Virus record (IMG/VR): IMGVR_UViG_3300020061_000005
From: a virus
Lineage: Duplodnaviria; Heunggongvirae; Uroviricota; Caudoviricetes
Reading direction: 5' to 3' (one strand)
Length of the DNA: 64,000 nt
Shown here in pieces: positions 35,289 through 59,376 of this stretch. The position numbers and the translations under genes are program-made. A model generated the notes under the pieces. It was not told the origin of the DNA, did no database searches, and saw nothing but the letters and a program-made list of their open reading frames with translations. Every line of letters starts with the position of its first letter. Position 1 is the first letter of the stretch.

Positions 35289-35312
35289 AATTTACAAGGT
35301 AATACGGGTTAT
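35289..35312 (+). promoter_or_regulatory. Phage direct-repeat motif instance (TTTACA-A-GGTAATAC-GGGTTATAGC)
   Basis: Lies in the intergenic region below the sigma-factor gene. In + orientation it would read antisense into that gene. Confidence 0.35.
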
Positions 35313-35314
35313 AG

Positions 35315-35863
35315 CTAGAAGGATGCACCGCGCCTGCCCCTCTTGATGGGAATCCGTTCCATATAATCCTGTAGCGCTTGAGAATTTCGCAGCGCTGCGT
35401 ACGCGCGAGCCAGATCACGAAGCACGGTGCGGTAAGTCAAATGATACTTATCGGCTATCTGCTTGTAGGTGAGCTTTTCGAAGGCGTGCTCCATCAACAG
35501 GTACGCCTGTCGCGGTGGAAGCGTCTCCAATGCCCGATACAACACCACCTCGAACTCCTCGGCTGAGAGAATGTCATCTGGCGTACCGCGCTCGATCTCA
35601 ATGTCCTCCAGTCCCTCATCATCATGTGGATGGGCGTTGCGGCTGCGCTCACGCCATTCATTCGCGACGTTGGCAGCGATGCGGAAGAGATAGCTCTGCG
35701 GGTTAGTGATCAGCACATCATCGCTGTAGCGCAGGACGCGAAGGAACACTTCTTGGGCAAGATCATCTATGTCGGCGGTGGGAATGGAGGAGCGAGTAGC
35801 GAGCCACCGTTTTATCGGGGCTTGCCACGTGGAGAACAGTGCAGCCAGGTTATTGGCCGGCAT
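35315..35863 (-). CDS. ECF-type sigma-70 family RNA polymerase sigma factor
   Basis: Region 2 is DDLAQEVFLRVLRY...YLFRIAANVANEWRER. Region 4 is LPPRQAYLLMEHAFEKLTYKQIADKYHLTYRTVLRDL. Start taken at the internal Met to avoid overlap with Lar. Confidence 0.7.
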   Translation of the reverse strand: MPANNLAALFSTWQAPIKRWLATRSSIPTADIDDLAQEVFLRVLRYSDDVLITNPQSYLFRIAANVANEWRERSRNAHPHDDEGLEDIEIERGTPDDILSAEEFEVVLYRALETLPPRQAYLLMEHAFEKLTYKQIADKYHLTYRTVLRDLARAYAALRNSQALQDYMERIPIKRGRRGASF

Positions 35864-36128
35864 TCCCCTTATCCTCTGCTCTCGTTTCCATCCTTGCTCT
35901 CGCGCGTTCCTGTTCAACTGGGCAGTGCGGAGCATGCCAACCTGGTCCTAAAGTCCGCGGTCCATCACAACAATTCTCCACGTACACTGTTGCCCTGGTG
36001 TTCCAGCGCTTCAGCGATTGAGCCGTGGCGCCACAGGTCTCGCATTCAGGCCCGCGCTCGCCTTCGCCATTGAGCCAGCCGTTCGGATCGACGCTGCCAC
36101 CACAGAACGGACAGTCGAGGTCACTCAT
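35850..36128 (-). CDS. Lar-family restriction alleviation protein-like
   Basis: Begins MSDLDCPFCGG...CETCG. GGAGAGGAAG RBS. Confidence 0.5.
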   Translation of the reverse strand: MSDLDCPFCGGSVDPNGWLNGEGERGPECETCGATAQSLKRWNTRATVYVENCCDGPRTLGPGWHAPHCPVEQERARARMETRAEDKGNAGQ

Positions 36129-36235
36129 TCACTTCCTCTCCCGCAGCAGCTCGTGCATCGACCAGTGCTTGCGCCCACGCAATTGTCTTTTCATCCCACA
36201 GCCAGGGACTTTTCAGGACGAGTACTGGATCTAGG

Positions 36236-36598
36236 TCAATCATCGTTCTCTCCCTGAGTCGGACGTTTGAACTGCAGCACCTTTGCCGTCGGCGCGGGCT
36301 CGCCGAAGAACTCCGCTTTCCCGCGCTCCCACTTCAGTGCCAGCTCCGGAAGGAAACGTAGCCTATATTCCAGCTTGCGCATGTACGCGGAGCGCAGAGT
36401 TGCCTCCGTGATGACGTGATAGACGTCCAACGTCACCAGCTGCGCCATCGGCTTCTGTGCGGTCGGCCGTAACTCAAGCGCGGTGATTCGTTCTTCGCTC
36501 CCCGGACCGATCAGCACCCACAGGTCGCCGACGCGAAGGGGTATTGCACGGCGTTCGCGCAGCTTTCTGACGCGGTACGTCACGACTGGTCCTCGCAC
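36236..36598 (-). CDS. Hypothetical protein
   Basis: GTG start. Confidence 0.45.
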   Translation of the reverse strand: MRGPVVTYRVRKLRERRAIPLRVGDLWVLIGPGSEERITALELRPTAQKPMAQLVTLDVYHVITEATLRSAYMRKLEYRLRFLPELALKWERGKAEFFGEPAPTAKVLQFKRPTQGENDD

Positions 36599-36939
36599 TT
36601 CGTTGCGGTTGAGTAGCGCTCAAGCTCGCTGATCGCCTCGCATACGTGGCACTCCGGGCCGAAGTCCAGATGCTTACGCAGAGAAGGCAAGATCCACGCG
36701 GCGATACGCTGTATATCTTCGAGCGGAACCGTTGGCCTGGCGGCCTTTTTCGCCCGACCGAATTCCTCTAACTGGTTGGCACCTTCCAGCCAGCTCACGA
36801 TCATCATCTCGCGCGCCGCCTTTATCGAGATCCGCAAATCATCTGGGATACCCAGCGGTACAGCCTGCGCGACTGAGGCGGTGGCTTGCGCGAACAGCGG
36901 GTGATCGAGCAGATCCTTGTATTCTATGCACTTGGTCAT
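36580..36939 (-). CDS. Hypothetical protein
   Basis: ORF. Confidence 0.45.
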   Translation of the reverse strand: MTKCIEYKDLLDHPLFAQATASVAQAVPLGIPDDLRISIKAAREMMIVSWLEGANQLEEFGRAKKAARPTVPLEDIQRIAAWILPSLRKHLDFGPECHVCEAISELERYSTATKCEDQS

Positions 36940-37653: not shown

Positions 37654-39036
37654 TTACTCTTCCTCGTCGTACTCCACCTCGGTCTCCTCGCCAGCCACGA
37701 TGTTGCGCATCACGGCGTCGAGGGTGATCTTCTGCTTCGGCTTCTTGCCATTCAGCAGCTCGATCTGCGGCAGGATGGTGTTGGCCGCATCCAGCAGCGC
37801 ATCCCCGGACAGCATCGAGACCATCGTGCCAGGCTCCTGCAGCGCGAGCTGCGCGATCTTGGCGCGCTTCACCACCTCGGCCACGACAGCCGGGATGTTG
37901 CCGGCCAGCAACTCGCCCACGGGCGCGAGATCTGCCGCAGGGTCGATCGCGCCCTTGCCGTACGCCAGGATCAACCTGGTGATCGCCTCGCCATCAGGCG
38001 GTGGCACCTCGATCACTGCATCCAGGCGGCCTGGGCGCAGCATGGCGCGGTTGATCTTGTCCATGTGGTTGGTGGTCAGCACCACGATGATGTTGGCGGT
38101 CTTGCTGTCGATGCCATCGATCGTGTTCAGGATATCGTCCATCTTCACGGAGCGGTCCCCGGTCACGACCCGATCGATGTCCTCGCAGAAGATCACGCAG
38201 GCGGGTGACTGGTACTGCTTGGCGAAGCTGATCGCCTCGGCCAGCTCATCCGCGCGCGGGATGTAGAGGTAGGTGATCCCTGCGCGCACCGCGAGCTTGG
38301 AGGCCACTGCTGCGGTCATCGTCTTGCCGGTGCCGTAGATGCCACCGAGCAACACGCCGCGCTTGAGCGCGATGCCGTTGGCCAGCAGATCCTTTGTGCG
38401 GGTGATCGGCGTGAACAGGTTCACGTTTACCATGCGCTCGATCGACTTCGGCAGGATCAGCATCTTCTCATCGATGTTCTCGGTCTCCAGGAATTTCGGC
38501 TCCGGCATGAGTAGCTTGCCACCCGCATCATCGAAGAAGCGGATGCGCAGCGCCTTGCCGCGATAGATGCTGTTGGTGGCGATTTGCTCGCGCAGATCCG
38601 CAAAGATCGCCTTGATGGTCGGCTCGTCCTTGCGCAGCACGGAGGCCGCGACGGCGAACACGTATCGACCGTTCTTCATCGAGAACGAGTTCTGGATGAT
38701 GCCTGTGATGTTGGGTAGCTTGAACTTGCCCCATGGCACCTGGCACACCTGGTTGAACCCGATCTCGACGTTGATCATCTGCGGGTAGAAATCAGCGGAA
38801 GGGATAAAGCCGAAACGGCGTGTGAGTACAGCTTCGAGCTGCACTGCGCCGTCCAGCGGGAATACTTCGAAGGCTTCGGTCAGGTTGATCTCCTGCTGCT
38901 CGTAGACCCGGCGAGCCTGGATCAACTTCTCTGCTTCATCGAGTGTCATGCCATCGGGGAGAATCATCTTCTCTCCCATGAACACGATGTCGGCAGCAAC
39001 GTGTCGGGTGATGGCGTCTTTCAGTTCCGTAGGCAT
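37654..39036 (-). CDS. AAA+ ATPase
   Basis: Walker A GGIYGTGKT, Walker B VIFCEDID, and SRH MLRPGRLD. GGGAGA RBS. Confidence 0.75.
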   Translation of the reverse strand: MPTELKDAITRHVAADIVFMGEKMILPDGMTLDEAEKLIQARRVYEQQEINLTEAFEVFPLDGAVQLEAVLTRRFGFIPSADFYPQMINVEIGFNQVCQVPWGKFKLPNITGIIQNSFSMKNGRYVFAVAASVLRKDEPTIKAIFADLREQIATNSIYRGKALRIRFFDDAGGKLLMPEPKFLETENIDEKMLILPKSIERMVNVNLFTPITRTKDLLANGIALKRGVLLGGIYGTGKTMTAAVASKLAVRAGITYLYIPRADELAEAISFAKQYQSPACVIFCEDIDRVVTGDRSVKMDDILNTIDGIDSKTANIIVVLTTNHMDKINRAMLRPGRLDAVIEVPPPDGEAITRLILAYGKGAIDPAADLAPVGELLAGNIPAVVAEVVKRAKIAQLALQEPGTMVSMLSGDALLDAANTILPQIELLNGKKPKQKITLDAVMRNIVAGEETEVEYDEEE

Positions 39037-39068: not shown

Positions 39069-39092
39069 CGGCGCGAGTATTACCTGTGTTAC
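39069..39092 (-). promoter_or_regulatory. Phage promoter-motif instance (TTGCGG-N-GGTAACAC-AGGTAATAC) upstream of AAA+ ATPase operon
   Basis: + strand reads GTATTACCTGTGTTACC, between the PurA-like stop and the AAA start. Confidence 0.45.
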
Positions 39093-40216
39093 CTCAGATC
39101 CGCAACCGAATCTCGCGTTTGACCGTCGCTGGTGTAGCTGGCGTACGGTTGCAGTGCGTCTGGCATCGGTAACTGATCGATGTGCGAGACCGCGAGGCGG
39201 CAGAGCACACGGTTGCCGATCGCATCGTTCGCGGTGTTGATGATCATTTGCTTCACGTCCAAATACCCGAAACGCAGCGTGCCCTGGAATTCGTGCGGTG
39301 CGTTGGTGTCATCGGCGAATTTCATCTCAGGTTCTTCGCCTGGCAGCGGCCCTGCACCGTGGCGTGTGAGATAGGTGCGTGTGCAATAGATCGCCTCCAA
39401 TTCATCGATTCCCCATTCGTTCGCGAGCGTCGCCACGTTCTTGGATCCGGTGTTGGAGCGGGTGAGGTGCGGGAAGTCCGCCGTGTTGTTCTGATCCAGC
39501 AGCAGCCCCTGCGCGCCTTCGAATACAATTCTCTGTGGTCGGTTATGCTCATTCGGCGGCGGTACCAAGAGCACTCGCTGGGTGAACATCATCACGTCAT
39601 ACAGGAACCCATCGATCGCATCCTTCGAGTTCCATTGCTTGGAGTACTGGTTGAAAACGTCTGGCTCTATCCCAGCGATTCCCAACTCGAAAGAGCTGTG
39701 TGCTTGGATTGCGGCAATCAGGTGGCGCACCCCGGTAGTGCTACGGTAAAGATCACGCACCGTTAGCGGGATCTTGCGGTGCCGCTCGATGGTCTGGTTG
39801 AAGCCAACCCCGCAGCTCCCGTGTCGGGCTTCGCCGCGGTGATTCTCCTGGAGCTGGTTCACCATCATGTCCCACGGCGTCGTCACCATGCACTCGCCGT
39901 CGACAAACACACGTGGCCAGTTGTTGGTGAAGCAGCCCTTGCCGTGGCCTTCCAGCTCCACGCTCTCCTGGTTGAACAGGATGGGATTCACCACAAAGAA
40001 TCGGCTCAGGTACGTGGGCACGTTCAGGAACGTCCCCGAGCCGAAGTGATGGAACACATGGCGGCGGCCATCGGGAGTCACGACGGTGTGCCCTGCCTGC
40101 GCGCCTCCGTTGAAGCGCACGACAAGATCGACTGTGTGCCTTGAGCACAAGTAGTCGACCATCTTTCCCTTACCCTCGTCGCCGTAGTTGGCGCCGATGA
40201 CCGCCCATGCCTTCAT
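39089..40216 (-). CDS. Adenylosuccinate synthetase family protein (PurA paralogue; candidate PurZ-like)
   Basis: GANYGDEGKGKMVDYL, GGAQAGHTV and FEGAQGLLLD...TRHGAGPLPGE match PurA. 375 aa, shorter than canonical PurA. ATGA-coupled to the VWA gene. Confidence 0.75.
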   Translation of the reverse strand: MKAWAVIGANYGDEGKGKMVDYLCSRHTVDLVVRFNGGAQAGHTVVTPDGRRHVFHHFGSGTFLNVPTYLSRFFVVNPILFNQESVELEGHGKGCFTNNWPRVFVDGECMVTTPWDMMVNQLQENHRGEARHGSCGVGFNQTIERHRKIPLTVRDLYRSTTGVRHLIAAIQAHSSFELGIAGIEPDVFNQYSKQWNSKDAIDGFLYDVMMFTQRVLLVPPPNEHNRPQRIVFEGAQGLLLDQNNTADFPHLTRSNTGSKNVATLANEWGIDELEAIYCTRTYLTRHGAGPLPGEEPEMKFADDTNAPHEFQGTLRFGYLDVKQMIINTANDAIGNRVLCRLAVSHIDQLPMPDALQPYASYTSDGQTRDSVADLR

Positions 40217-41144: not shown

Positions 41145-41624
41145 TTACCTTGAAAATTTGCGACTCTCAGCGGGAGTCGTGACCGCTTTGGCTCGGTTCC
41201 AGCCATAAACCTTGATGCGACGATATGCCGTCTGGTACTTAACGACGCCATGCTTTCGCACGGCGCGGGTCAGTGTCAATCTCTCGCCGCCGATTCGGAC
41301 CATCACGTTGGAGCGAGAGTTATTGTTCTGCTCTTCCTTTGAGGTGAAGCGACAATTGCCGGGTGAGTAGTTGCCATTATTGTTTTCGCGATCGAGCGTG
41401 TGGCCGCTCGGGATAGTCCCCTGCTGATCGCACCATCTCAGGAACGCATGAGGGCGGCTTCGCCAGGCGCAACATACACTGATGCCGCGAGCACCATAGC
41501 GGTTGTAATCCTTAGAGGAAGTGACATGGCAGCGCTGCACCATCGCGTGCCAGGTGCCGTAGAACCTATGGTGAGACAGGCCATGCGTCCGATTACGCTC
41601 CGCTAGATCAAGTCTTTGCCACAT
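41145..41624 (-). CDS. HNH/AP2-like DNA-binding or homing endonuclease-like protein
   Basis: YGTWHAMVQRCH...YGARGISVCCAW pattern, as in phage HNH/AP2-type proteins. Confidence 0.4.
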   Translation of the reverse strand: MWQRLDLAERNRTHGLSHHRFYGTWHAMVQRCHVTSSKDYNRYGARGISVCCAWRSRPHAFLRWCDQQGTIPSGHTLDRENNNGNYSPGNCRFTSKEEQNNNSRSNVMVRIGGERLTLTRAVRKHGVVKYQTAYRRIKVYGWNRAKAVTTPAESRKFSR

Positions 41625-44026: not shown

Positions 44027-44433
44027 TTGTTTAGCTCCTGTGCTTCGTAGTCGGCGTTAGTGTGAGAGTCATCACACCCATAAGGCTCACGAAGCCATTT
44101 GATGTGGGCCTTGATCTCGCGAACCACGTGGCTCACGGGGCGATCTGACTGGTAATAGAAGATCTCCTCGGTGCCAATACCGCCGAAGAACGAACGTGCA
44201 TCAGTGATGTCGTAATTACCCTTTTTATCGAAATTCAGCGTGAAGCCGCGGCGCCTGAACCACGGGTCCAGCCCGCAATGGCCAGCCGCGCAGGCGATGG
44301 TTCCGCACTCGGTGAGGTTGCCCCAAATACCCATGTCCCAATGATTGCGCTTGACGTGCGCCGGTAGTGCCTGCAGGACGCGCGCTGCGTTCTCCCAGCG
44401 CTCGATGATTAGTGGACCGGTGGCCGTTTTCAC
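44023..44433 (-). CDS. Hypothetical protein
   Basis: GTG start. Contains CGTIACAAGHC. Confidence 0.45.
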   Translation of the reverse strand: MKTATGPLIIERWENAARVLQALPAHVKRNHWDMGIWGNLTECGTIACAAGHCGLDPWFRRRGFTLNFDKKGNYDITDARSFFGGIGTEEIFYYQSDRPVSHVVREIKAHIKWLREPYGCDDSHTNADYEAQELNK

Positions 44434-46352: not shown

Positions 46353-46377
46353 GTGTTACCACTATTACCTTGAGAAT
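46353..46377 (-). promoter_or_regulatory. Phage promoter-motif instance (GGTAATAGTGGTAACAC, minus orientation) upstream of exo-recT operon
   Basis: Motif copy GTGTTACCACTATTACC on the + strand. Confidence 0.4.
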
Positions 46378-46398
46378 AACAATTTGCAAGGGGATCGA

Positions 46399-46596
46399 AT
46401 GGCCGGCACATTCAGCTACCACGTCAACCGCAGTGACATGACGAACTTCCAGTGGGATACCTGCAGGATCTGCAGCGAGTCGATCATCACCGCGCACGTA
46501 AAGATGCAGCACCGCAGCTTCGATCCGAAGCCGACCGGCGGTACGGAGATGAACCCGGTCTATTCCACGCACGTCTGTCCGAGGAAGGATGATTGA
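46399..46596 (+). CDS. Small Zn-ribbon-like protein
   Basis: GGGGA RBS. Contains CRICS...H...C. Confidence 0.4.
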   Translation: MAGTFSYHVNRSDMTNFQWDTCRICSESIITAHVKMQHRSFDPKPTGGTEMNPVYSTHVCPRKDD

Positions 46597-46907: not shown

Positions 46908-46950
46908 GACAACGCCTCGGCAGGTTTCCCCGTCGAGGCGTTGGTGGATC
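46908..46950. terminator. Stem-loop terminator candidate (10-bp perfect stem CAACGCCTCG/CGAGGCGTTG); U-run on minus strand
   Basis: AAAAAGA sits before the stem on the + strand, which gives a TCTTTTT run after the stem on the minus strand. Confidence 0.4.
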
Positions 46951-47065: not shown

Positions 47066-47090
47066 AAAGTTCCGTATTACCTCTGTTACC
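47066..47090 (-). promoter_or_regulatory. Phage promoter-motif instance (GGTAACAGAGGTAATAC, minus orientation)
   Basis: + strand reads GTATTACCTCTGTTACC. Points leftward, toward the terminator at 46.9 kb. Confidence 0.4.
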
Positions 47091-47462
47091 TGCCATCTCG
47101 TGGCCGTTGTGCTGTGCACGCGGGGGTGGCCTGAAGCCGTCCAGCGCAGGGGTGGGTCCCAGACCAAGCACCTTTGCGCTACACGCTTGGCTGGTAACCA
47201 AGTCAATCACTACACCGTGTAACTGGATGCAAGTTCCAGCTCGCCGCAAGGCGATGTGGGTTAAATGCGCCGCGCACTCGTCAAGAACCAGCGGCCCAGC
47301 TCAACGCAGTCACCGCGAGAACGTGGCAGGCGGCGGAGTTCCCTAACCTCACCAGTTGCGTGGGGTTAGGGGGCTCCGTCTGTGGGGTTTCAGAGTTCTA
47401 CAAGATTCCAGGAAAAGATTCCGGAAGAAGAACGGTATGAGCTGTCATCGAAACACTTGCAG

Positions 47463-47488
47463 CCTTGAGGTAACAGAGGTAATACTTC
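47463..47488 (+). promoter_or_regulatory. Phage promoter-motif instance (GGTAACAGAGGTAATAC) upstream of gene at 47528
   Basis: Inverted copy of the site at 47066-47090. Confidence 0.45.
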
Positions 47489-48980: not shown

Positions 48981-49250
48981 ATGATGAGTGAATTTACCGC
49001 GGACCAGATTTTCCTCTCGGTCAGGCTGCACGAAATCCTCTCGAAGCGTGAGCTGGAAGTGGCCGGACTGATCGCGGATGGCCAGCCACCGGAGGCGATC
49101 TCGAAGAAGTTGGCGCTGAGTGTCAAAACCGTATCGACGTACCGCGCCCGCGTGATGGACAAGCTAAAGCCGCACGGCGTTGAGAGCAACGCGCGCCTGG
49201 CGGTGCTGCTGTTCCAGGCTGGGCTCACTCCTGCGGTCAAGCTGCAATGA
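48981..49250 (+). CDS. LuxR/GerE-type HTH transcriptional regulator
   Basis: LSKRELEVAGLIADGQPPEAISKKLALSVKTVSTYRARVMDKL. GGAGAAAA RBS. Confidence 0.6.
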   Translation: MMSEFTADQIFLSVRLHEILSKRELEVAGLIADGQPPEAISKKLALSVKTVSTYRARVMDKLKPHGVESNARLAVLLFQAGLTPAVKLQ

Positions 49251-51954: not shown

Positions 51955-52406
51955 AGCGCGTACCGCAGGAGATCCGGGAACATTGGCAGCGAGTAGTAGA
52001 GCTGGGCTGCGTCGTGTGCGGCAACATGCTCACCACCATCCACCACGTGCATTCGCGCGAGCTGTCGGCCATGGAGCTAGGTCGCGGGATCTCGCAAAAA
52101 GTAAACCATTGGCTGGTCATTCCGCTGTGCGTGAAGCACCACACCGGCGAGGAGGGCGTTGATGTCATCGGAATCGAAAGCTGGGAAAAAAGGTTCGGAT
52201 CGCAAGTTGACCTACTCCGATCCGTGGGGCATCGAATCGGAATCGACCCATACGAGCGAGCCCGATCTGCTGGACCCTATCGAACAGAGGCCGAACGCAG
52301 TTATAAAAAACGGCGGGCCGCAATTGCTCAAAGGGCTGATGCTGCCGCTGCCGCCATCGGCCAATCGGTACTGGAAGAGCTTCCTGATGGTGCGCAAGGG
52401 GACTAG
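51951..52406 (+). CDS. Hypothetical Cys/His-containing protein
   Basis: CVVCGN...HHVH. Confidence 0.4.
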   Translation: MKRVPQEIREHWQRVVELGCVVCGNMLTTIHHVHSRELSAMELGRGISQKVNHWLVIPLCVKHHTGEEGVDVIGIESWEKRFGSQVDLLRSVGHRIGIDPYERARSAGPYRTEAERSYKKRRAAIAQRADAAAAAIGQSVLEELPDGAQGD

Positions 52407-52782
52407 GTTCCCGCTGCTGATTGCTTCCATGAAGGCGCTCTACACACACGTGCGGCACATGAATGCGCCAGGCGAGGATGCGGTGGCCTACTCCAAGCAC
52501 CTGGAGGAAGTCGCCAACCAACGCGGCTTTCGCTTCTTCACCAACAAGCCACTGCGCGTCGACTTGGTAGTGTGCCCGCGTGATCGGCGCTCGATCGATG
52601 CGCACAACTACGCGAAGGTGATCCTCGATGTGTTCGAGCACATTGGGGTGTACGAGGATGATGCGCAGGTGGAGGACTTGCGGGTGCGGCTGGGTCCGGT
52701 GATCCCTGGCGGGCGAATCCTGGTGTCGCTGTGGGAGATCCAGCCAGAGAAGCAAAAGATTCTCGATGAGGCGTGGCGATGA
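52339..52782 (+). CDS. RusA-family Holliday junction resolvase
   Basis: MLPLPPSANRYW...SIDAHNYAKVILDVF...GVYEDDAQVEDLRV parallels RusA. Confidence 0.65.
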   Translation: MLPLPPSANRYWKSFLMVRKGTRFPLLIASMKALYTHVRHMNAPGEDAVAYSKHLEEVANQRGFRFFTNKPLRVDLVVCPRDRRSIDAHNYAKVILDVFEHIGVYEDDAQVEDLRVRLGPVIPGGRILVSLWEIQPEKQKILDEAWR

Positions 52783-53364: not shown

Positions 53365-54045
53365 ATGAGGCGCTGGGCGGCTGGATCCAAGAAAGGACGC
53401 GAGCCGAACAACGAACGGGAGAAGAAGTTCGCCGATGCGTACCTGCGCTCGCACGACGCGCAAGCCGCGTGGCTCGAAGCGGGTTACTCACCCCACACCG
53501 GCACGCGTGAGGCGGCCGTGAAGGTGCAGCTCCTGGCGCCGTACATCGAGCGAACGCAAAACGCCATCGCCAAGGAAGTGAGTAAGGTGTTCGTGCTCGA
53601 TCAGCAGACCATCCTGGATGAGATGATCGCGGTGGCCTTCGCCAATCCGCAGGACTATATCGATGAGGTGGTGCAGATCGTGGATGGCCAGGAGGTGCGC
53701 AAGCACGTGCGCAAACCCATCATGTCGCTCACTCGCTCGCAGGCCGCGGCGATCTCGGAGATCACATTCAACCCGGATGGCACGGTGTCATACGTGCTAC
53801 CTGGCCCGAAGGAGAAGCACCCCTTCCAGAAGGATCTTGGCCAGCACTTAGGGCTATTCCATCCGAAGCTGATCCAGGAGCATCGCCATCGGCATATGCA
53901 CGCGCACATCGACATGAAGGATGTCGACCAGAAATCCCTGTTGGGCGCGGAACAAATGCTACTGCAGGCGCTTGGGCACCGTGGGAACCTGCTTTTGGGC
54001 TTGCAGCCACACCCGGATGACGAGGACGAGTCGGAAAATATTTGA
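53365..54045 (+). CDS. Terminase small subunit (Terminase_2-like)
   Basis: EKKFADAYLRSHDAQAAWLEAGYSPHTG. ATGA-coupled. Confidence 0.65.
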   Translation: MRRWAAGSKKGREPNNEREKKFADAYLRSHDAQAAWLEAGYSPHTGTREAAVKVQLLAPYIERTQNAIAKEVSKVFVLDQQTILDEMIAVAFANPQDYIDEVVQIVDGQEVRKHVRKPIMSLTRSQAAAISEITFNPDGTVSYVLPGPKEKHPFQKDLGQHLGLFHPKLIQEHRHRHMHAHIDMKDVDQKSLLGAEQMLLQALGHRGNLLLGLQPHPDDEDESENI

Positions 54046-54070
54046 CAGGGAAGGTTATACGGGTAATATT
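54042..54070 (+). promoter_or_regulatory. Sigma70-like promoter TTGACA-N17-TAATAT containing the phage direct-repeat motif GGTTATAC-GGGTAATATT
   Basis: Exact -35 and a near-consensus -10 at 17-nt spacing. Sits over the TerS stop codon. Confidence 0.5.
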
Positions 54071-54094: not shown

Positions 54095-54274
54095 GTGCGT
54101 GCAAACGTCATTGTGAGAAGCGAATCCAACAGCATCGTTCACCTCGTTGATACCAACATCGACGAGCAGAGCGTGCTGGACGTGGTGGCGCGACTTCGCA
54201 GGGACTACGGCGCCGGCTACAAGATCGACCTGGCACAAATTGAATTGGCGCGGCTGGCAGCAGCCACGCAGTGA
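54095..54274 (+). CDS. Small protein (59 aa)
   Basis: AGGAGG nine nt upstream of a GTG. GC3 about 72%. Confidence 0.4.
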   Translation: MRANVIVRSESNSIVHLVDTNIDEQSVLDVVARLRRDYGAGYKIDLAQIELARLAAATQ

Positions 54275-54278: not shown

Positions 54279-55045
54279 CGAGCCGGATTGCGGCGGGTTA
54301 ACACCGTTAATGCTATCCCCGTCACTGTTGACACGTTCGCCCCTGATTGAAGTATGCGAGCCGGAGCACCGAGGGTTATCTTCCAAATCTGACATCCCTC
54401 ACCGCACTTACACGTTCGCAGCCGAGTGTGATTCAAGCTGGTTGAGCTGCCTTCGGGTGGATCGATTCAGTGGCAAAAGCCCACCGCATGTACCCGGCGA
54501 TATAGGGGCAACGATTTTGAAAGGCGAGTCGGAAGTGGTTCGTTATCGACTTGTAATCGAGAGGTCGTGGGTTCGAGTCCCATCGGGTGCTTCGGTGCCT
54601 GTAGCTCAGTTGGTCAGAGCGCTAAACGCGGACTGCATTTACACATTCGCCGCTGATTGAGGAAGACGAGCCGGAGTTGAAGGGTTAACGCAAAACTGTG
54701 GGTCGTGGGTTCGAATCCCATCATTCGCTTCGGCGGGTGTAGCTCAGTCTGGTAGAGCAATAGTAAAATATCCTTCTGCGCTACACGTTCGTCGTTTGAA
54801 TTCGGAAGATGGGCCGATAGGGATTGGTTATCTTGGTTAACGTAGGTTCGACTCCTATCGTCACCTGGGCGAAAGCAGAGGTGGCGTAATCCGATCTCGC
54901 ATTACACGCCCATCGTTGATTTTGGTATTCGGGCCGGAAGGGTCTCGTTATCCTTCGCCAAAACTTGAAGGCTTGGTGTAATCAGGTGCACGCCGTTTCC
55001 AACAGGGGACGGAGGATGGGTTCGAATCCCGAGCAAAACGCGAGG
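54279..55045 (+). ncRNA. Array of Y-RNA-like / tRNA-mimic modules (YrlA-like candidates) upstream of Ro60 gene
   Basis: ORF-free region. Two tRNA-like D-arms sit at 54602-54620 and 54740-58. Four T-arms with GGTTCGANTCC loops sit at 54567-83, 54705-21, 54842-58 and 55016-32. Adjacent halves do not pair into tRNAs. Six copies of GRGYCGGARG...GGTTAWC units occur, each preceded by TTACACGTTCGCC...TGATTGA. Boundaries are approximate. Confidence 0.5.
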
Positions 55046-55101
55046 TCTGCTGACACGTCCGAATTTGTTTCTTCCACGACTCAGTATGAGAGGGTCCGAT
55101 C

Positions 55102-56757
55102 ATGGTCAACTACGCAAAGCACGTCTCCCCTGCTGCGACTCCGCAGTCCCAGCCACTTCCTGGCCGCACCGACATGGTGAAGAACGCAGGCGGTGGCTAC
55201 GTCTTTCAGGTGTCCGACATGGAGCGTGTCCGTCGCTTCCTGATCCTGGGTTCCGAGGGCGGCACTTACTACGCATCCGAAGCCAAGCTCACGCGCGACA
55301 ACGCGGCCACCGTGCTGGCTGCGCTCGACGCAGATGCGACGAAGGTCATCGACTTGGCGGTGGAGGTTTCCGACAAGGGCCTGGCACCGAAGAACGATCC
55401 TGCGATCTTCGTCCTGGCGCTCGCGTCAGTCTCGAAGGACGTGGGCACTCGCCAGTACGCGCTGTCGAAGCTCTCGGAGATCTGCCGCATCCCGACGCAC
55501 CTGTTCACTTTCGTGCAGTTCCGCCATGATCTGGGCGGTGGCTGGGGTCGTGGTGCGCGCAAGGCGGTTGCTGCCTGGTACACGAAGCAGTCGCCCACGG
55601 GGCTTGCGATCAATGCGCTCAAGTACCAGTCGCGCAACGGCTGGGCTCACCGCGATCTGCTGCGCCTGGCGCACCCGGTCACGAAGGATGCTGGCATGGT
55701 CAAGGTGTTCGATGCGATCAGCCAGCCAGCGGGTGGCGAGCGTCGTGCGCCGAGCACCTCGAAGACCGAGCCACCGCGTAATCGTGGTGATGGTGCTGGC
55801 TGGGAAGGTCTGCGCTCGATCAGCGTGGTGGATGGCTGGCTGAAGATCCAGGCGGGCGATCTGAAGCCTGCGCAGGCGGCCAAGGTCATCACGGACCATC
55901 GCCTGCAGCGTGAGTTCATCCCGACCGAGCTGCTTACCAGTGCAGAGGTGTGGGAGGCATTGCTGCCGAACCTGGGTTACACGGCGCTGCTGCGCAACCT
56001 GGGCACCATGTCGAAGGTGGGGCTGCTCGCTCCATTGTCGGCCGCCTCGAAGTACGTGCAGGCCAAGCTGGGCGAGGGTGAGTCGATCACCAAGGCTCGC
56101 GTGCATCCGTTCAGCGTGCTCCTGGCGCTGCGTACGTATGCACAGGGCCATGGCTTCAAGGGCAGCAACACCTGGACGGTGGTGCCGCAGGTAGTCGACG
56201 CACTGGATTCGGCGTTCGATCTGTCGTTCGGCAACATCGTGCCAACCGGCAAGCGCTTCATCCTGGGCATCGACGTCTCCAGCTCAATGTCCACGCAGAT
56301 CAACGGTAGCCCGATCAGCTCGGCAGAGGCGGCGGCGGCGTTTGCGATGATCACGGCGCGCACCGAGCCGGCTTATGGTGTGTTTGGCTTCACGGATCGC
56401 TTCCAGGATCTGAAGGTGACGGCGCGCGATTCGCTGGCCACGGTGTGCACGAAGGTGCAGCAACGCAATTTCGGTTCGACCGACTGCGCGGTGCCGCTGC
56501 GCTGGGCTCGTCAGAACAAGGTGGTGGCCGATGCGGTGCTCGTTTACACGGATAACGAGACGCACGCGGGTCCGACGCACGCGCTGACGGAGCTGCAGGC
56601 GTACCGCAAGGAGTCGAGCATCAACACCAAGCTGGGCCTGGTGGCGTTCACCGCGACCGCGCATTCGGTAGCAGACCCGACCGATGCCGGCTCGATGAAC
56701 TTCGTGGGCCTGGATGGTTCGCTGCCTCAGGCGATTGCGGCGTTCGTGACTGGCTGA
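55102..56757 (+). CDS. rsr: Ro60/TROVE-domain protein (Rsr ortholog) with C-terminal vWA
   Basis: GGYVFQVSDMERVRRFLILGSEGGTYY, ICRIPTHLFTFVQFRHDLGGGWGRGARKAVAAWY, KYQSRNGWAHRDLLRLAHP, TALLRNLG, ARVHPFSVLLALRTY and PTGKRFILGIDVSSSMS are all colinear with human Ro60. Confidence 0.9.
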   Translation: MVNYAKHVSPAATPQSQPLPGRTDMVKNAGGGYVFQVSDMERVRRFLILGSEGGTYYASEAKLTRDNAATVLAALDADATKVIDLAVEVSDKGLAPKNDPAIFVLALASVSKDVGTRQYALSKLSEICRIPTHLFTFVQFRHDLGGGWGRGARKAVAAWYTKQSPTGLAINALKYQSRNGWAHRDLLRLAHPVTKDAGMVKVFDAISQPAGGERRAPSTSKTEPPRNRGDGAGWEGLRSISVVDGWLKIQAGDLKPAQAAKVITDHRLQREFIPTELLTSAEVWEALLPNLGYTALLRNLGTMSKVGLLAPLSAASKYVQAKLGEGESITKARVHPFSVLLALRTYAQGHGFKGSNTWTVVPQVVDALDSAFDLSFGNIVPTGKRFILGIDVSSSMSTQINGSPISSAEAAAAFAMITARTEPAYGVFGFTDRFQDLKVTARDSLATVCTKVQQRNFGSTDCAVPLRWARQNKVVADAVLVYTDNETHAGPTHALTELQAYRKESSINTKLGLVAFTATAHSVADPTDAGSMNFVGLDGSLPQAIAAFVTG

Positions 56758-57138: not shown

Positions 57139-57182
57139 GGTTGTGGTAGATTTCCGTCCCATCTCACATAACGAGGTGGCCC

Positions 57183-57422
57183 ATGCCCAACCGCAGCATC
57201 CGCGACGAGCGCCAAGAGTACGGCCGTCCCAAGGTCGGACCCGCCGACCCAGCCACCATCCACGCCAAACTAGAGGAGCGCCTGGCCGAGCGTGAACCAG
57301 CGCCGCCGAAGGCCGCAGCCCCCGCCGAGACACCCAGCCCAACCAAGGATCTTTCCCTGGTCGGCGCGGCCGGCAAGATCCGCGGGCGCAAGTCGAGGAT
57401 CGATGAGGCTTCCGATTTCTGA
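57183..57422 (+). CDS. Hypothetical protein
   Basis: GAGGTGG RBS. Confidence 0.45.
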   Translation: MPNRSIRDERQEYGRPKVGPADPATIHAKLEERLAEREPAPPKAAAPAETPSPTKDLSLVGAAGKIRGRKSRIDEASDF

Positions 57423-57673
57423 TGACTGTGGCGCTCGCCGAGATCCCCAAGGAGCTATCCGCGATTGACCAGGTGAAGCTGGTCTTCATCGACGGGCTGA
57501 ACGCGCGCATCGAGAAGATGTTTCCGAGCCGCTACAAGGCGGCCGAGTTTCTGGACCAGGGGCAGGACACCCTGAGCTTCGTGCGCCACCGGCAGTACAA
57601 CAAGGTCTCATTGGCCTGGCTGGTGCAGCAGACCGATCGCCTGGGAGCGAAGATCACGATCACGATCGAATAG
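57422..57673 (+). CDS. Hypothetical protein
   Basis: ATGA-coupled ORF. Confidence 0.45.
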   Translation: MTVALAEIPKELSAIDQVKLVFIDGLNARIEKMFPSRYKAAEFLDQGQDTLSFVRHRQYNKVSLAWLVQQTDRLGAKITITIE

Positions 57674-57698
57674 CTCTCTCCCCACGGGAACCCGTGCG

Positions 57699-59339
57699 AT
57701 GCTCGATGAACACACCGCACGGCTGATTGCCGGCGAGAAGAAACCAACTCCCATTCAATTACTCACGATGGTTGCGGCCGAGCGTATGCGCCGCGAGTTC
57801 ATCACGTTCGCGCAGCGTGCCTGGCACATCATCGAGCCGAAGTCCTGCAAGTGGAACTGGCACATGGATGCTATCGCCGAGCACCTGGCGTACGTGACTA
57901 CCGGGGATATTCGCTTCCTGATGGTGATGATCCCACCGCGCATGTCGAAGTCGCTGCTGTGCACGGTGCTGTGGCCCGCCTGGCACTGGTTGCAAAAGCC
58001 GCAGACGCAGTTCATCTGTGCGAGCTACAACGCAAATCTCTCCCTGGGTCACTCCGCGCTCTCGCGCCGCATCATCGAGTCTGGCTGGTTCCAGCAGTTC
58101 TACGCGAATGAGTGGTACCTGTTGCCCGATGAGAATCGCGTCGACAAGTTCCGCAACTCGATGGGCGGCTACCGGCTCACCACCTCGGTCGATGGGCGCA
58201 CCACCGGTGAGGGCGGCGATGTCCAGTTAGGCGATGACTTCCACGATGCGAAGAAGGTCGAGTCCGATGCGGTGCGGCAATCTGCGCTCGCCTGGCACGA
58301 CAACGCCTGGCGCTCGCGCGTGAACGATCCGAACAACTCGCAAAAGGTCTACATCGCGCAGCGCACGCACGATGCTGATGTCATGGGCCACGTGATCCAG
58401 CAGGAGGGCCAGCGCTGGGTGCAGCTGTGCCTTCCCATGGAGTTCGATCCCCACCGCAGGTGCATCACGTATCTGAACAAGGGCCGCGGGGATATCAAGG
58501 ACAAGGAGATCTTCCGCGATCCGCGCGTGAAGGAGAACGAGCTACTGAACCCAAAGCGCTTCAACAAGGAAACTTCCGCGATAGAGAAGGCTTCGGGCAT
58601 GACACCGCGCGCCTGGAACGCGCAATACCAGCAGCAGCCCGAAGGACAGGGCGGCCTGATCCTGAAACGGCACTGGTGGCGGCAGTGGGTGTATCCGGAC
58701 TGGCATGAACTCGCCGGCCAGGATCGGCCGTTGCCTGACTTCTTCGAGGTCATCCAGGTTTACGACACCGCGTTCGAGACCGATGAGGAGGCGGACTTCT
58801 CGGCCATGACGTGCTGGGGCTTGTTCACATATCGAGAGAATGATCGCAACCCGAAGACCGGGCTCATGCGTGAGGGGCAGCAGCGCGTGTGCGCCATGCT
58901 GCTGGACAAAATGTGCGATCGATACGCTTATCCAGAGCTGCGCGAGAAGGTGATTTACTACGACAATGAATACGCACCGGATTGGGTGTTGATCGAGAAG
59001 AAAGCGAGCGGGCATTCTCTGATCCAGGAGCTGAAGCGCAAGAAGATCCCCATCAAGGCGGTGAAGCTCACGGATGGCGGGGATCTGATCGCGCGCGTGC
59101 ATGAAGCGTCCCTCATGCTGTACTCGGGCTGCATCTGGTACGTTCCAAGGCAGTGGGCGTACAGCGTGATCGACTCGGCCGCCAAGTTCCCAGCCGGCGC
59201 GCACGATGACTTGGAGGCGACGCTTGCCATCGCCTGGCAGTACATGCGCCGCTACTACGATCTAACCCTGCCAGATGATGAGCCGATCGATGAGATCAGT
59301 CCCTTCCGCTGGAAGCGCGAGCGTCGCAGTTACGCTTGA
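57699..59339 (+). CDS. Terminase large subunit
   Basis: 546 aa. N-terminal ATPase-like region (GDIRFLMVMIPPRMSKS) and a C-terminal nuclease-like region. Typical TerL size. Confidence 0.65.
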   Translation: MLDEHTARLIAGEKKPTPIQLLTMVAAERMRREFITFAQRAWHIIEPKSCKWNWHMDAIAEHLAYVTTGDIRFLMVMIPPRMSKSLLCTVLWPAWHWLQKPQTQFICASYNANLSLGHSALSRRIIESGWFQQFYANEWYLLPDENRVDKFRNSMGGYRLTTSVDGRTTGEGGDVQLGDDFHDAKKVESDAVRQSALAWHDNAWRSRVNDPNNSQKVYIAQRTHDADVMGHVIQQEGQRWVQLCLPMEFDPHRRCITYLNKGRGDIKDKEIFRDPRVKENELLNPKRFNKETSAIEKASGMTPRAWNAQYQQQPEGQGGLILKRHWWRQWVYPDWHELAGQDRPLPDFFEVIQVYDTAFETDEEADFSAMTCWGLFTYRENDRNPKTGLMREGQQRVCAMLLDKMCDRYAYPELREKVIYYDNEYAPDWVLIEKKASGHSLIQELKRKKIPIKAVKLTDGGDLIARVHEASLMLYSGCIWYVPRQWAYSVIDSAAKFPAGAHDDLEATLAIAWQYMRRYYDLTLPDDEPIDEISPFRWKRERRSYA

Positions 59340-59345
59340 AAAAAG

Positions 59346-59376
59346 TTGACACGGTAATATTACCCGTATTACCTTC
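59346..59376 (+). promoter_or_regulatory. TTGACA -35 plus phage direct-repeat motif containing 12-bp palindrome GGTAATATTACC
   Basis: Sequence is TTGACACGGTAATATTACCCGTATTACC. Lies upstream of the 59443 gene. Confidence 0.4.

What the first reader, a model, noticed from the sequence alone, without database searches (positions are those of the whole stretch)
35289..59376. Seven copies of a phage-specific ~18-bp direct-repeat promoter motif at operon starts
Motif instances, all oriented toward the downstream genes:
- 54053-70: GGTTATAC-GGGTAATATT
- 59350-59376: GTTGACAC-GGTAATATT, plus an inverted half
- 47465-85: GGTAACAG-AGGTAATAC
- 47068-88, minus orientation
- 39072-90, minus, upstream of the AAA operon
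- 46355-75, minus, upstream of exo-recT
- 35295-35312: GGTAATAC-GGGTTATAGC

Other points:
- The second half-site doubles as a -10 (TAATAT/TAATAC).
- Two instances have an exact TTGACA at 17 nt.
- The phage also encodes its own ECF sigma (35315-35863), a LuxR-type regulator and a wHTH regulator.

The motif may be a phage middle/late promoter class, or an operator for one of these regulators.
Basis: seen in the sequence. Interest (0 to 1): 0.7.

Follow-up and report, generated by a model that had tools for sequence, protein, structure and literature searches.

The report
Tandem-heptamer operator in phage promoters
An uncultured phage carries seven copies of a 16-bp direct repeat that sits inside its host-type promoters and most likely is the docking site of a phage regulator, possibly a small protein that no gene caller annotated.

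Summary
The motif is real. GGTWAYA-NN-GGTWAYA, a 7-2-7 direct repeat, occurs exactly seven times, with zero expected by chance and no degenerate copies. All seven copies are intergenic.

- Sites 35298 and 59358 point against the flanking genes.
- At 59350-59376 the full repeat is on the minus strand.

Sites 39078, 46354, 47469 and 54053 are embedded in sigma-70-type promoters. A TTG-type -35 lies 15-18 bp upstream of a half-site that serves as the -10. This holds for 11 of 12 forward sites across five related phage contigs, against a 6% null. Reversed sites have no -35 in the motif's own orientation.

The motif is conserved at matching positions (upstream of the AAA gene and the exo gene) in related uncultured phages of 49-62% GC. 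A reversed copy always precedes a conserved but uncalled 80-aa gene (35037-35279, minus strand). One diverged phage has a different repeat (GTGACA-W-GGTGAC) at both the exo and the small-gene positions.

Best reading: an operator for a phage-encoded protein that binds tandem half-sites and occludes early or middle host-type promoters. The 80-aa protein is the leading candidate binder, but this is unproven. A promoter class read by the phage sigma factor is not supported.

Verdict: a new member of a known kind, of moderate interest.

The parts
35298..35313 (+). Site 1: GGTAATACGGGTTATA. It is inverted relative to the flanking minus-strand genes. It lies 1 nt after the stop of the sigma gene and 19 nt upstream of the ATG of the 80-aa ORF. 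It has no -35 on either strand, so it is an operator-only site.
   Evidence: The same inverted site is conserved at the same place in L162 and L163.
39078..39105 (-). Site 2: GGTAACACAGGTAATA (39078-39093) with -35 TTGCGG (39100-39105). This reads as TTGCGG-17-TAATAC or TTGCGG-18-AATACT. It lies 41 nt upstream of the AAA ATPase ATG at 39036.
   Evidence: The orthologous sites in L162, L163 and L164 have TTGACA or TTGACT at 16-17 bp (alignment).
46354..46389 (-). Site 3: GGTAATAGTGGTAACA (46354-46369) with -35 TTGCAA (46384-46389). It is best read as TTGCAA-17-AATAGT, so here the first half-site is the -10. It sits in the 77-bp divergent gap between exo (start at 46321, minus strand) and the 65-aa gene 46399-46596 (plus strand).
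   Evidence: Sites also lie upstream of exo in L171 and L172.
47075..47090 (-). Site 4: GGTAACAGAGGTAATA. Together with site 5 it forms a perfect 18-nt inverted pair (AGGTAACAGAGGTAATAC) 376 nt apart. It has no recognisable -35 and no credible gene directly downstream. It may be an auxiliary operator or a weak leftward promoter.
47457..47484 (+). Site 5: -35 TTGCAG (47457-47462), then GGTAACAGAGGTAATA (47469-47484). It reads as TTGCAG-17-TAATAC or TTGCAG-18-AATACT. It lies 43 nt upstream of the ATG at 47528 and heads the rightward gene block.
54042..54068 (+). Site 6: TTGACA (54042-54047), a 16-bp spacer, then TAATAT inside GGTTATACGGGTAATA (54053-54068). It lies after the small terminase gene and ahead of a 59-aa ORF (54095-54274), the Y-RNA-like modules and the Ro60 gene. 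It is the only site that passes the strict sigma-70 scan.
59346..59373 (-). Site 7: GGTAATACGGGTAATA on the minus strand (59358-59373), inverted relative to the plus-strand genes. An overlapping plus-strand half-site (59353-59359) gives the palindrome GGTAATATTACC. A plus-strand TTGACA lies at 59346-59351, with a possible weak -10 TACCTT at 18 bp. The site lies between the large terminase gene and the DUF932 gene.
   Evidence: The promoter reading is my inference.
35037..35279 (-). Conserved 80-aa basic protein that is not called by the public gene callers. It is the leading candidate for the motif-binding protein. It is always preceded by an inverted tandem or triple repeat.
   Evidence: codon-wise conservation in L162 and L163; family of 31 representatives; AF2 pLDDT 83.6, beta-alpha-beta-beta; upstream repeats in L168, L169, L171, L172, L173.
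48984..49250 (+). LuxR/GerE-type HTH protein. It is an alternative candidate binder.
   Evidence: PF00196, E = 7e-14. No homologue was found in the fetched stretches of relatives.
35315..35863 (-). ECF-like sigma factor with regions 2 and 4. It is the rival reader of the motif.
   Evidence: It is absent from the orthologous stretch of L162 and L163. It shows no similarity to phiEco32 gp36 by tblastn.
46399..46596 (+). 65-aa CxxC-containing protein transcribed divergently from exo across site 3. It is conserved at that position in L171 and L172 and is a minor candidate binder.

Best explanation
The 16-bp element is an operator. It consists of two identical 7-bp half-sites (GGTAAYA) in tandem with a 9-bp period. 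It is bound by two copies, or two dimers, of one phage-encoded sequence-specific DNA-binding protein.

In four window sites (39078, 46354, 47469, 54053) the operator is built into a host sigma-70-type promoter. One half-site supplies the -10 (TAAYAC/T, or AAYACT one base later). The other half-site fills the spacer or, at 46354, the start-site region. A TTG-type -35 lies 15-18 bp upstream. Site 47075 is co-oriented with the leftward genes but has no -35. A protein bound at the promoter-embedded sites would exclude RNA polymerase. The element therefore most likely shuts down, or feedback-limits, the early and middle transcription units:
- the divergent control region;
- the exo-recT operon;
- the AAA-ATPase operon;
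- the Y-RNA/Ro60 unit.

Sites 35298 and 47075 lack a usable -35. They would act as binding sites only, for example for autoregulation or roadblock of the small gene, or as an auxiliary or looping site. Site 59358 is an inverted operator lying in the spacer of a rightward TTGACA promoter.

The most likely binder is the conserved, unannotated 80-aa basic protein at 35037-35279 (minus strand), which would then autoregulate.

Shown here:
- the sites, their statistics and their intergenic position;
- the -35 association;
- conservation at orthologous positions;
- the change of the repeat in a diverged phage.

Inferred:
- that a protein binds the element;
- that binding represses;
- which protein it is.
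For: 1. There are seven perfect sites against 0 expected, no degenerate copies, and all are intergenic.
2. Eleven of 12 forward sites in five phage contigs have TTG 15-18 nt upstream of the second-half-site hexamer, against a 6.3% background (binomial 7e-13). None of 4 inverted sites has one. In 9 of 12 forward sites the second half-site is followed by T, giving AAYACT with A-11 and T-7 (sequences).
3. Both half-sites, including the one in the spacer, form a conserved island upstream of the AAA gene in L162, L163 and L164 (67-72% protein identity), while the surrounding non-coding DNA has diverged. Sigma-70 alone does not need the spacer half-site or the GG.
4. The motif recurs upstream of exo and other genes in L171 (62% GC) and L172 (49% GC), with spacing of 9 or 10 bp.
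5. The operator shifts by one half-site relative to the promoter at site 46354. It is inverted at 35298 and 59358. This is the behaviour of a binding site, not of a polymerase recognition element.
6. An inverted tandem or triple repeat lies 3-27 nt upstream of the small gene in every homologous locus with an upstream gap: window, L162, L163, L169, L171 and L172.
7. In the diverged phage L168/L190 the repeat is GTGACA-W-GGTGAC at both the small-gene and the exo positions. L173 has the same variant at the small gene. Their small protein differs in the conserved helix: ALRQQAYRRK against S[ILV]RxQASK[QK].
8. Thirty-eight more distant relatives (675 kb) have no 7-2-7 site even with one mismatch. 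Only two of them have a remote small-protein homologue.
Against: - No binding or transcription data exist, because the phage is uncultured.
- Co-occurrence of the small protein and the motif may simply reflect shared ancestry.
- The covariation rests on one diverged lineage (L168/L190 and L173).
- Most -10 hexamers are non-consensus. The strict sigma-70 scan calls only one of the seven sites. A positive role, or a non-sigma-70 holoenzyme, is therefore not excluded.
- Only 10-20 kb of each relative was available, so the absence of sigma or GerE there is weak evidence.
- About 4.5 kb of this genome was not examined.
Confidence: 0.55

Rival explanations
1. The motif is a phage-specific promoter class read by host core polymerase carrying the phage ECF-like sigma (35315-35863). 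This would follow the model of phiEco32, where gp36 reads a single -10-like element.
For: - The phage encodes a sigma with regions 2 and 4.
- There is precedent. phiEco32 middle and late promoters have only AATGTA centred at -11.5 and are read by gp36 (PMC12276001).
- Most -10 hexamers here are poor for sigma-70 (TAATAC), and the strict scan finds only 1 of 7.
- Five of 7 sites point toward the genes downstream.
Against: - Two identical half-sites 9 bp apart cannot be the -35 and -10 contacts of sigma domains 4 and 2.
- A separate TTGACA-like -35 is already present.
- Two of 7 sites are inverted, and the inversion at the small gene is conserved.
- The operator register shifts at site 46354.
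- None of the seven sites precedes a structural or lysis gene.
- The sigma gene itself lies inside a motif-headed operon.
- Sigma is absent from the orthologous stretch of L162 and L163, which keep the motif.
- The variant repeat GTGACA in L168 is not -10-like.
- There is no similarity to gp36.
Confidence: 0.12
2. The element binds a phage activator, or a factor that remodels polymerase, and this factor is needed to fire promoters whose -10 is weak. Its action would be positive rather than negative.
For: - The -10 hexamers are non-consensus, mostly with C at -7 in the TAATAC reading.
- The fixed register in most forward sites, with the second half-site as the -10, is also what a co-recognition mechanism would give.
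Against: - A protein occupying about -25 to -9 on duplex DNA overlaps the sigma region 2/3 contacts.
- Known activators bind upstream of or at -35, or, as in the MerR family, on dyad sites within 19-20 bp spacers. That statement rests on general knowledge.
- The spacers here are 15-18 bp.
- Read one base later, 9 of 12 hexamers have A-11 and T-7, so they need no help.
- The inverted and promoter-less sites remain unexplained.
Confidence: 0.12
3. No extra factor is involved. The seven sites are copies of one strong host-type promoter core that spread by duplication and is kept by selection for promoter strength alone.
For: - The -35 and -10 architecture is present.
- Sites 4 and 5 are identical over 18 nt.
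Against: - The spacer half-site and the GG before each TAAYA are conserved across phages whose other intergenic DNA has diverged.
- There are sites without any -35, and sites inverted relative to the genes.
- A diverged phage replaces both orthologous sites with a repeat that does not resemble a -10.
Confidence: 0.05
4. The repeats are bound by a host protein, for example a response regulator of the OmpR/PhoB type. The CpxR box GTAAA-N5-GTAAA is similar. Alternatively they serve a function that is not transcriptional, such as replication iterons or terminase or partition sites.
For: - The core reads GTAAY-N4/5-GTAAT. The resemblance to the CpxR box comes from memory only.
- An unrelated viral contig (L176) has an array of at least 8 GGTTACAC(T)-type copies, several as tandem pairs with a 9- or 10-bp period. 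They lie in a roughly 2.7-kb stretch with no convincing ORF next to its small terminase gene.
- Sites 6 and 7 follow the two terminase genes.
Against: - The sites are dispersed as single pairs at gene starts, not clustered as iterons or pac sites would be.
- They are tied to -35 elements.
- The repeat changes between related phages.
- The motif is kept in phages of 49-62% GC, which probably infect different hosts.
Confidence: 0.06

Closest known systems
Mycobacteriophage L5 (cluster A) repressor with its dispersed asymmetric operators and 'stoperators' (PMC9283540)
   Same: - Many copies of a non-palindromic site are scattered over the phage genome.
- The sites lie both in promoters and in short intergenic spaces.
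- One protein controls many transcription units.
- Orientation largely follows the direction of transcription.
   Different: - L5 sites are single 13-mers bound by a monomer with two domains. Here there are two identical heptamers in tandem.
- L5 has more than 20 sites. Here there are 7.
- L5 is temperate and its protein is the immunity repressor. No integrase or immunity module was seen here.
- Orientation is not strict here, with 2 of 7 sites inverted.
Omega (ParB) ribbon-helix-helix repressor of plasmid pSM19035 and its 7-bp heptad arrays (PMC9499535)
   Same: - The half-sites are non-palindromic 7-bp units.
- A single unit is not enough and two adjacent units are needed.
- The arrays overlap promoters, including the promoter of the regulator's own gene.
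   Different: - Omega heptads are contiguous, with a 7-bp period and 7-10 copies, in direct or inverted order.
- Here the period is 9 bp (10 in L171, 8 in L168). There are 2 copies, or 3 in L172, and only direct repeats.
- The candidate protein is predicted as beta-alpha-beta-beta, not ribbon-helix-helix.
phiEco32 gp36-dependent middle and late promoters (PMC12276001)
   Same: - A phage of similar genome size with SU10-type adaptor proteins.
- The phage has its own ECF-like sigma.
- A short phage-specific A/T-rich element lies at the -10 position of several promoters.
   Different: - The phiEco32 element is single, strictly oriented, lacks a sigma-70 -35, and heads middle and late genes.
- Here the element is a tandem repeat with a normal -35. 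It is sometimes inverted and never lies in front of a structural or lysis gene.
- The sigma is unrelated by tblastn.
NarL/GerE-family '7-2-7' heptamer sites (general knowledge)
   Same: - Heptamer half-sites are separated by 2 bp.
- A LuxR/GerE-type HTH protein is encoded in the window.
   Different: - The classical high-affinity 7-2-7 site is an inverted repeat. These sites are direct repeats.
- The half-site sequence is unrelated to TACYYMT.
- The GerE gene was not found in the fetched parts of the relatives that carry the motif.
Phage P1 C1 repressor with dispersed asymmetric 17-bp operators (general knowledge)
   Same: One repressor acts on asymmetric operators scattered over the genome, many of which overlap promoters.
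   Different: - The P1 operators are single 17-mers.
- P1 is a temperate plasmid prophage.
- C1 is a 283-aa protein unrelated to any candidate here.

Membership tests
Sigma-70-type (housekeeping) promoter | A -35 hexamer resembling TTGACA, 16-18 bp upstream of the -10 | tested here: met
   Window sites have TTGCGG (39078), TTGCAA (46354), TTGCAG (47469) and TTGACA (54053, and 59346 on the plus strand). Eleven of 12 forward sites, including relatives, have one, against a 6.3% null. It is not met at 47075 or 35298.
Sigma-70-type (housekeeping) promoter | A -10 hexamer resembling TATAAT, with A at -11 and T at -7 | tested here: inconclusive
   The strict scan accepts only site 54053. Read one base later, 9 of 12 forward sites give AAYACT or AATATT with A-11 and T-7 (sequences). 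This re-reading is my own.
Sigma-70-type (housekeeping) promoter | A mapped transcription start about 7 nt downstream of the -10 | not testable with these tools
   The phage is an uncultured metagenomic one and there are no RNA data.
Phage-sigma single-element promoter class (phiEco32 gp36 type) | A single -10-like element without a sigma-70 -35 | tested here: not met
   The element is a tandem repeat and a TTG-type -35 is present.
Phage-sigma single-element promoter class (phiEco32 gp36 type) | The element is always co-oriented with the downstream genes and heads middle and late (structural) genes | tested here: not met
   Two of 7 sites are inverted. None of the seven sites precedes a structural or lysis gene, and none lies anywhere in window 1-34000 or 60000-72443.
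Phage-sigma single-element promoter class (phiEco32 gp36 type) | The motif co-occurs with the sigma gene in relatives | tested here: inconclusive
   Sigma is absent from the orthologous stretches of L162 and L163 and from the 20-kb pieces of L171 and L172. The full genomes were not available.
Dispersed asymmetric phage repressor operators (L5 gp71 or P1 C1 type) | Multiple non-palindromic sites dispersed in intergenic DNA, some overlapping early promoters | tested here: met
   All 7 sites are intergenic. Four lie within promoter cores, and a fifth lies in a promoter spacer.
Dispersed asymmetric phage repressor operators (L5 gp71 or P1 C1 type) | An identified cognate repressor that binds the site | not testable with these tools
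   There are only candidates: the 80-aa protein, the GerE protein and the 65-aa CxxC protein.
Dispersed asymmetric phage repressor operators (L5 gp71 or P1 C1 type) | A temperate life style, with the repressor as the immunity function | tested here: not met
   No integrase, partition or CI-like gene was found among the genes annotated by PHROGs or Pfam. About 4.5 kb of the genome and many small ORFs remain unannotated.
Omega/RHH heptad operators | Contiguous 7-bp repeats bound by a ribbon-helix-helix dimer per heptad | tested here: not met
   The period is 9 bp, not 7. The candidate protein is predicted as beta-alpha-beta-beta. No RHH Pfam hit was found among the proteins scanned with Pfam.
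NarL/GerE 7-2-7 sites | Two heptamers with a 2-bp spacer arranged as an inverted repeat, bound by a LuxR-type HTH dimer | tested here: not met
   All sites are direct repeats. No inverted 7-2-7 arrangement exists in 72.4 kb.

The most novel reading that the evidence does not exclude
The unannotated 80-aa beta-alpha-beta-beta protein (35037-35279, minus strand) founds a new family of sequence-specific DNA-binding regulators. It would recognise tandem heptamers, autoregulate, and act as the master switch that silences host-type early promoters in a whole group of uncultured phages of about 65-77 kb. Its recognition helix and its operator would co-evolve, from S-I-R-x-Q-A-S-K-Q with GGTAAYA to A-L-R-Q-Q-A-Y-R-R with GGTGAC.
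Probability: 0.3. Interest if true: 0.65.

Novelty: new member of a known kind. Interest (0 to 1): 0.45.

Why it matters
The finding defines the regulon of an uncultured phage lineage from sequence alone.
- It gives a set of host-type promoters that can be used directly as regulated parts.
- It points to a small protein, missed by gene callers, as a possible new type of DNA-binding regulator with a simple and testable recognition code.
- It shows that 'phage-specific promoter motifs' seen by eye can be operators embedded in ordinary promoters. That changes which protein should be purified for follow-up.

The regulatory principle itself, one phage protein acting on dispersed operators in promoters, is well known.

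Tried and rejected
- **Scan of viral contigs with GGTAAYASWGGTAATAC.** It was uninformative, and loci L039-L158 should be ignored.
- **Scan with TTGACW-N4-6-motif.** It gave 16 hits, mostly a conserved topoisomerase-like coding motif. None shares proteins with the window. Only L176 was curious.
- **Thirty-eight relatives found through the AAA ATPase at 50-59% identity.** None has the motif, so they could not be used for footprinting.
- **Search for a second, ECF-type (GGAAC...CGT) motif in intergenic DNA.** Nothing convincing was found.
- **Word-indexed homologue search with the 80-aa protein.** It found nothing because gene callers skip the ORF. The exhaustive HMMER search did find the family.
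- **Single-sequence AF2 model of the 80-aa protein.** It was poor, with pLDDT 44. The alignment-based model reached pLDDT 83.6, but the PDB and viral fold searches were not diagnostic, and afdb50 was unavailable.
- **Pfam and PDB sequence-profile searches of the family.** Both were negative.
- **Attempts to fetch the last 4.5 kb of the genome.** They failed.
- **Nearest cultured phages by large terminase.** Identity is only about 38% or less. Megablast finds only a 73-76% identical stretch of 375-564 bp in the AAA gene of KPP25-like Pseudomonas phages. No annotated relative exists.
- **RNA-level binding by the small protein.** I rejected this because the forward and inverted sites would give complementary, different RNA sequences.
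- **tRNA search and Rfam at gathering thresholds.** Both were negative.

Full report
**1. What is in the sequence**

The seven instances were read directly. They all fit GGTWAYA-NN-GGTWAYA: two copies of one 7-bp half-site in tandem, with a start-to-start distance of 9 bp.

- The pattern has exactly 7 matches in the 64-kb window, against 0.00 in dinucleotide-preserving shuffles.
- Allowing two mismatches adds nothing, so the sites are all-or-none.
- The half-site alone occurs 30 times against 5.9 expected. Fifteen of those 30 lie in the seven sites.
- No other spacing (0-7 bp) and no inverted arrangement occurs in 72.4 kb of the genome. The one exception is an extra plus-strand half-site at 59353-59359, which overlaps site 7 and gives the palindrome GGTAATATTACC.

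**2. Genome context**

The window is part of a metagenomic phage contig of about 76.9 kb (ENA ERZ27268014 k141_1606173).

- GC content is about 60%.
- Plus-strand genes fill window 1 to about 33,600. They are virion and lysis genes, including a 2934-aa protein.
- A minus-strand block runs from 46,321 down to 33,777.
- A plus-strand block starts at 47,528.

Annotated genes:

| Gene | Window coordinates |
|---|---|
| ECF-like sigma | 35315-35863 (-) |
| AAA ATPase | 37654-39036 (-) |
| PurZ-like adenylosuccinate synthetase | 39089-40216 (-) |
| RecT | 44430-45377 (-) |
| YqaJ/RecE-type exonuclease | 45374-46321 (-) |
| GerE/LuxR protein | 48984-49250 (+) |
| RusA | 52159-52782 (+) |
| Small terminase | 53365-54045 (+) |
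| Ro60/TROVE | 55102-56757 (+) |
| Large terminase | 57699-59339 (+) |

All seven sites lie in intergenic DNA, which makes up 8.3% of the 72.4 kb examined. The extension beyond the window (window-equivalent 64,001-72,443, locus L167) has no further site. About 4.5 kb could not be fetched.

**3. Orientation**

Five sites point the same way as the genes downstream: 39078-, 46354-, 47075-, 47469+ and 54053+.

Two sites do not:
- Site 35298(+) lies between the stop of the minus-strand sigma gene and the next minus-strand gene.
- Site 59358(-) lies between the plus-strand large terminase and DUF932 genes.

**4. Promoter architecture**

In the forward sites a TTG-type -35 lies 15-18 bp upstream of the hexamer formed by the second half-site.

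| Locus and site | Architecture |
|---|---|
| Window 39078 | TTGCGG-17-TAATAC |
| Window 47469 | TTGCAG-17-TAATAC |
| Window 54053 | TTGACA-16-TAATAT |
| L162 | TTGACA-16-TAACAT |
| L163 | TTGACT-17-TAATAC |
| L164 | TTGACT-16-TAATAC |
| L172, first site | TTGACA-17-TAATAC |
| L172, second site | TTGACT-15-TAATAC |
| L171, first site | TTGACA-17-TAACAC |
| L171, second site | TTTGCT-16-TAATAC |

- Eleven of 12 forward sites have TTG in this window, against 6.3% of random positions (binomial 7e-13). The orthologous sites are not fully independent. None of the four inverted sites has one.
- In 9 of the 12 the half-site is followed by T. One base later the hexamer then reads AAYACT or AATATT, with the two critical positions A-11 and T-7. 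This reading is mine.
- The tool's strict scan accepts only site 54053.
- At site 46354 the best promoter is TTGCAA(46384-46389)-17-AATAGT. It uses the first half-site as the -10, so the repeat is shifted by one unit relative to the polymerase.
- Site 47075 has no -35. Over 18 nt it is a perfect inverted copy of site 47469, 376 nt away.
- Site 59358 lies in the spacer downstream of a plus-strand TTGACA (59346-59351).

**5. Conservation in relatives**

The closest relatives by AAA ATPase (67-72% identity) are L162, L163 and L164.
- All three carry the motif in the short gap between the PurZ-like and AAA genes.
- The two half-sites form a conserved island there. The -35 is conserved as TTGAC in the three relatives and as TTG in the window, while the rest of the non-coding DNA has diverged.

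L171 (62% GC) and L172 (49% GC) are syntenic phages found through the small protein.
- Both carry the motif upstream of the exo gene and of one other gene.
- Both sites in L171 have 7-3-7 spacing.

Thirty-eight more distant relatives (675 kb) have no such site, even with one mismatch.

**6. The small gene**

Downstream of site 35298 lies an 80-aa ORF (35037-35279, minus strand) that the public gene callers do not call.
- It is real. L162 and L163 keep it open, at 58-63% identity by tblastn, with a codon-like substitution pattern.
- An exhaustive HMMER search finds a family of 60-100-aa proteins, with 31 representatives.
- The family has no Pfam or PDB sequence match.
- The alignment-based AlphaFold model (pLDDT 83.6) is beta-alpha-beta-beta, with a basic disordered N-terminus.
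- Fold searches give only weak hits to IF3-C-like, R3H and Alba folds, and to uncharacterised phage proteins.

In every locus where the homologue has an upstream gap, that gap holds tandem repeats in the same inverted orientation, 3-27 nt before the ATG:

| Locus | Upstream repeat (read in the gene direction) |
|---|---|
| Window | TATAACC-CG-TATTACC |
| L162 | TATTACC-CG-TATTACC |
| L163 | TGTTACC-GG-TATTACT |
| L169 | TATTACC-GC-TGTTTCC |
| L172 | TATTACT-AC-TGTTTCC-TT-TATTACT (triple) |
| L171 | GTTAACC-AG-AGTTACC |

In L168/L190 the repeat is different. It reads GTGACA-A-GGTGAC before the small gene and GTGACA-T-GGTGAC before exo, with an 8-bp period. L173 has the same variant before its small gene. 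Their small proteins differ in the conserved helix: ALRQQAYRRK against S[ILV]RxQASK[QK]. This is one covariation event across two orthologous operator positions.

**7. Interpretation**

- Two identical half-sites imply two copies of one DNA-binding module. They do not fit the two different domains of a sigma factor.
- The spacer half-site is conserved although sigma-70 does not read it.
- The register can shift, as at site 46354.
- The element can be inverted, or can stand without a -35.
- A diverged phage swaps the sequence at orthologous places for one that is not -10-like.

Together these observations point to an operator embedded in host-type promoters. Because it covers the spacer and the -10, occupancy should exclude polymerase, which means repression. 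This last step is inferred.

None of the seven sites precedes a structural or lysis gene. The units they head are:
- the two arms of the divergent control region;
- the exo-recT operon;
- the AAA ATPase operon, which contains the sigma gene;
- the 59-aa ORF, Y-RNA and Ro60 unit;
- the unit after the large terminase.

This fits a switch that limits or shuts off early and middle transcription.

The binder is not established. The 80-aa protein is favoured because of constant adjacency, phyletic co-occurrence and the covariation. The GerE protein, the 65-aa CxxC protein that diverges from exo (conserved in L171 and L172) and others remain possible.

**8. Rivals**

A promoter class read by the phage sigma has a precedent. 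In phiEco32, gp36 reads AATGTA centred at -11.5 (PMC12276001). That reading conflicts with:
- the -35 already present;
- the tandem symmetry;
- the inverted sites;
- the lack of sites before late genes;
- the absence of sigma from the orthologous stretches of L162 and L163.

The sigma also shows no similarity to gp36.

An activator role is not excluded, because many -10 hexamers are weak. A pure promoter-core explanation, a host factor, and an iteron or pac function are all unlikely, for the reasons given under the rival explanations.

**9. Comparison with known systems**

In logic the arrangement is closest to the dispersed asymmetric operators and stoperators of mycobacteriophage L5 (PMC9283540), and to the P1 C1 operators (general knowledge).

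In half-site grammar it is closest to the omega-repressor heptads of pSM19035 (PMC9499535) and to NarL-type 7-2-7 sites.

It differs from each in a defining feature:
- it is a tandem pair rather than a single 13-mer;
- its period is 9 bp rather than 7 bp;
- its repeats are direct rather than inverted;
- there is no sign of a temperate life style;
- no RHH or HTH binder has been identified.

**10. Verdict**

The 'promoter motif' is best described as a tandem-heptamer operator built into sigma-70-type promoters of an uncultured phage lineage. A previously unannotated small protein is the candidate regulator. This is a new member of a known kind of regulation. Interest is moderate, and it would rise if the small protein proves to be a new DNA-binding family.

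Noticed in passing
window 54520-55050 (+), with Ro60/TROVE gene at 55102-56757: Several tRNA-like, YrlA-like (Y RNA) modules lie upstream of a Ro60 orthologue, between the small and large terminase genes. They score below the Rfam gathering threshold (YrlA 41 and 33 bits against 69). tRNA-like matches score 23-29 bits, and ARAGORN finds no tRNA.
   Followed up: partly
window 39089-40216 (-): An adenylosuccinate-synthetase homologue falls in the PHROG annotated as the PurZ type (phrog_1211, E = 2e-62). It raises the possibility of a 2-aminoadenine (Z) genome. No MazZ-like or DatZ-like gene was recognised nearby. It is conserved in L162, L163 and L164, next to the AAA ATPase.
   Followed up: no
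window 35037-35279 (-): A conserved 80-aa protein-coding gene is missed by the gene callers of the public assemblies. It belongs to a family of small basic phage proteins with no Pfam family.
   Followed up: yes
window 47334-47378 and 46910-46943: A 19-bp-stem hairpin lies in the middle of the 629-bp gene-free divergent region between sites 4 and 5. A 15-bp-stem hairpin lies just after the HNH gene. They may be terminators or an RNA element. The 378 bp between the two sites has no ORF.
   Followed up: no
window 46593-46898 (+) and 41145-41543 (-): There are two HNH endonuclease genes. The first is transcribed against the surrounding leftward block, between sites 3 and 4, and may be a homing-type insertion.
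   Followed up: no
window 21448-30252 (+): A 2934-aa protein carries InPase and PBECR5 domains. Homologues of 2379 to 3933 aa (some cut at locus ends) occur in the syntenic phages L171 and L173, with ART-PolyVal domains.
   Followed up: no
L176 11280-11560 (IMGVR_UViG_3300033069_000472): An unrelated viral contig has at least eight copies of GGTTACAC(T) on both strands. Several are tandem pairs with a 9- or 10-bp period. They lie in a roughly 2.7-kb stretch with no convincing ORF next to its small terminase gene. The half-site matches GGTWAYA, but the contig shares no protein with the window.
   Followed up: partly
window 35864-36235: A 372-bp gene-free gap lies directly upstream of the sigma gene, inside the leftward operon. 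It contains no motif copy, so the sigma gene may have its own unidentified control region.
   Followed up: no
window 49247-49888 (+) and L167 18485-18940 (window-equivalent 70421-70876): The phage encodes a DnaJ-domain protein and a GroES (Cpn10) homologue. DnaJ-domain genes sit directly upstream of the small gene in L168, L172 and L173, and two genes upstream in L171.
   Followed up: no
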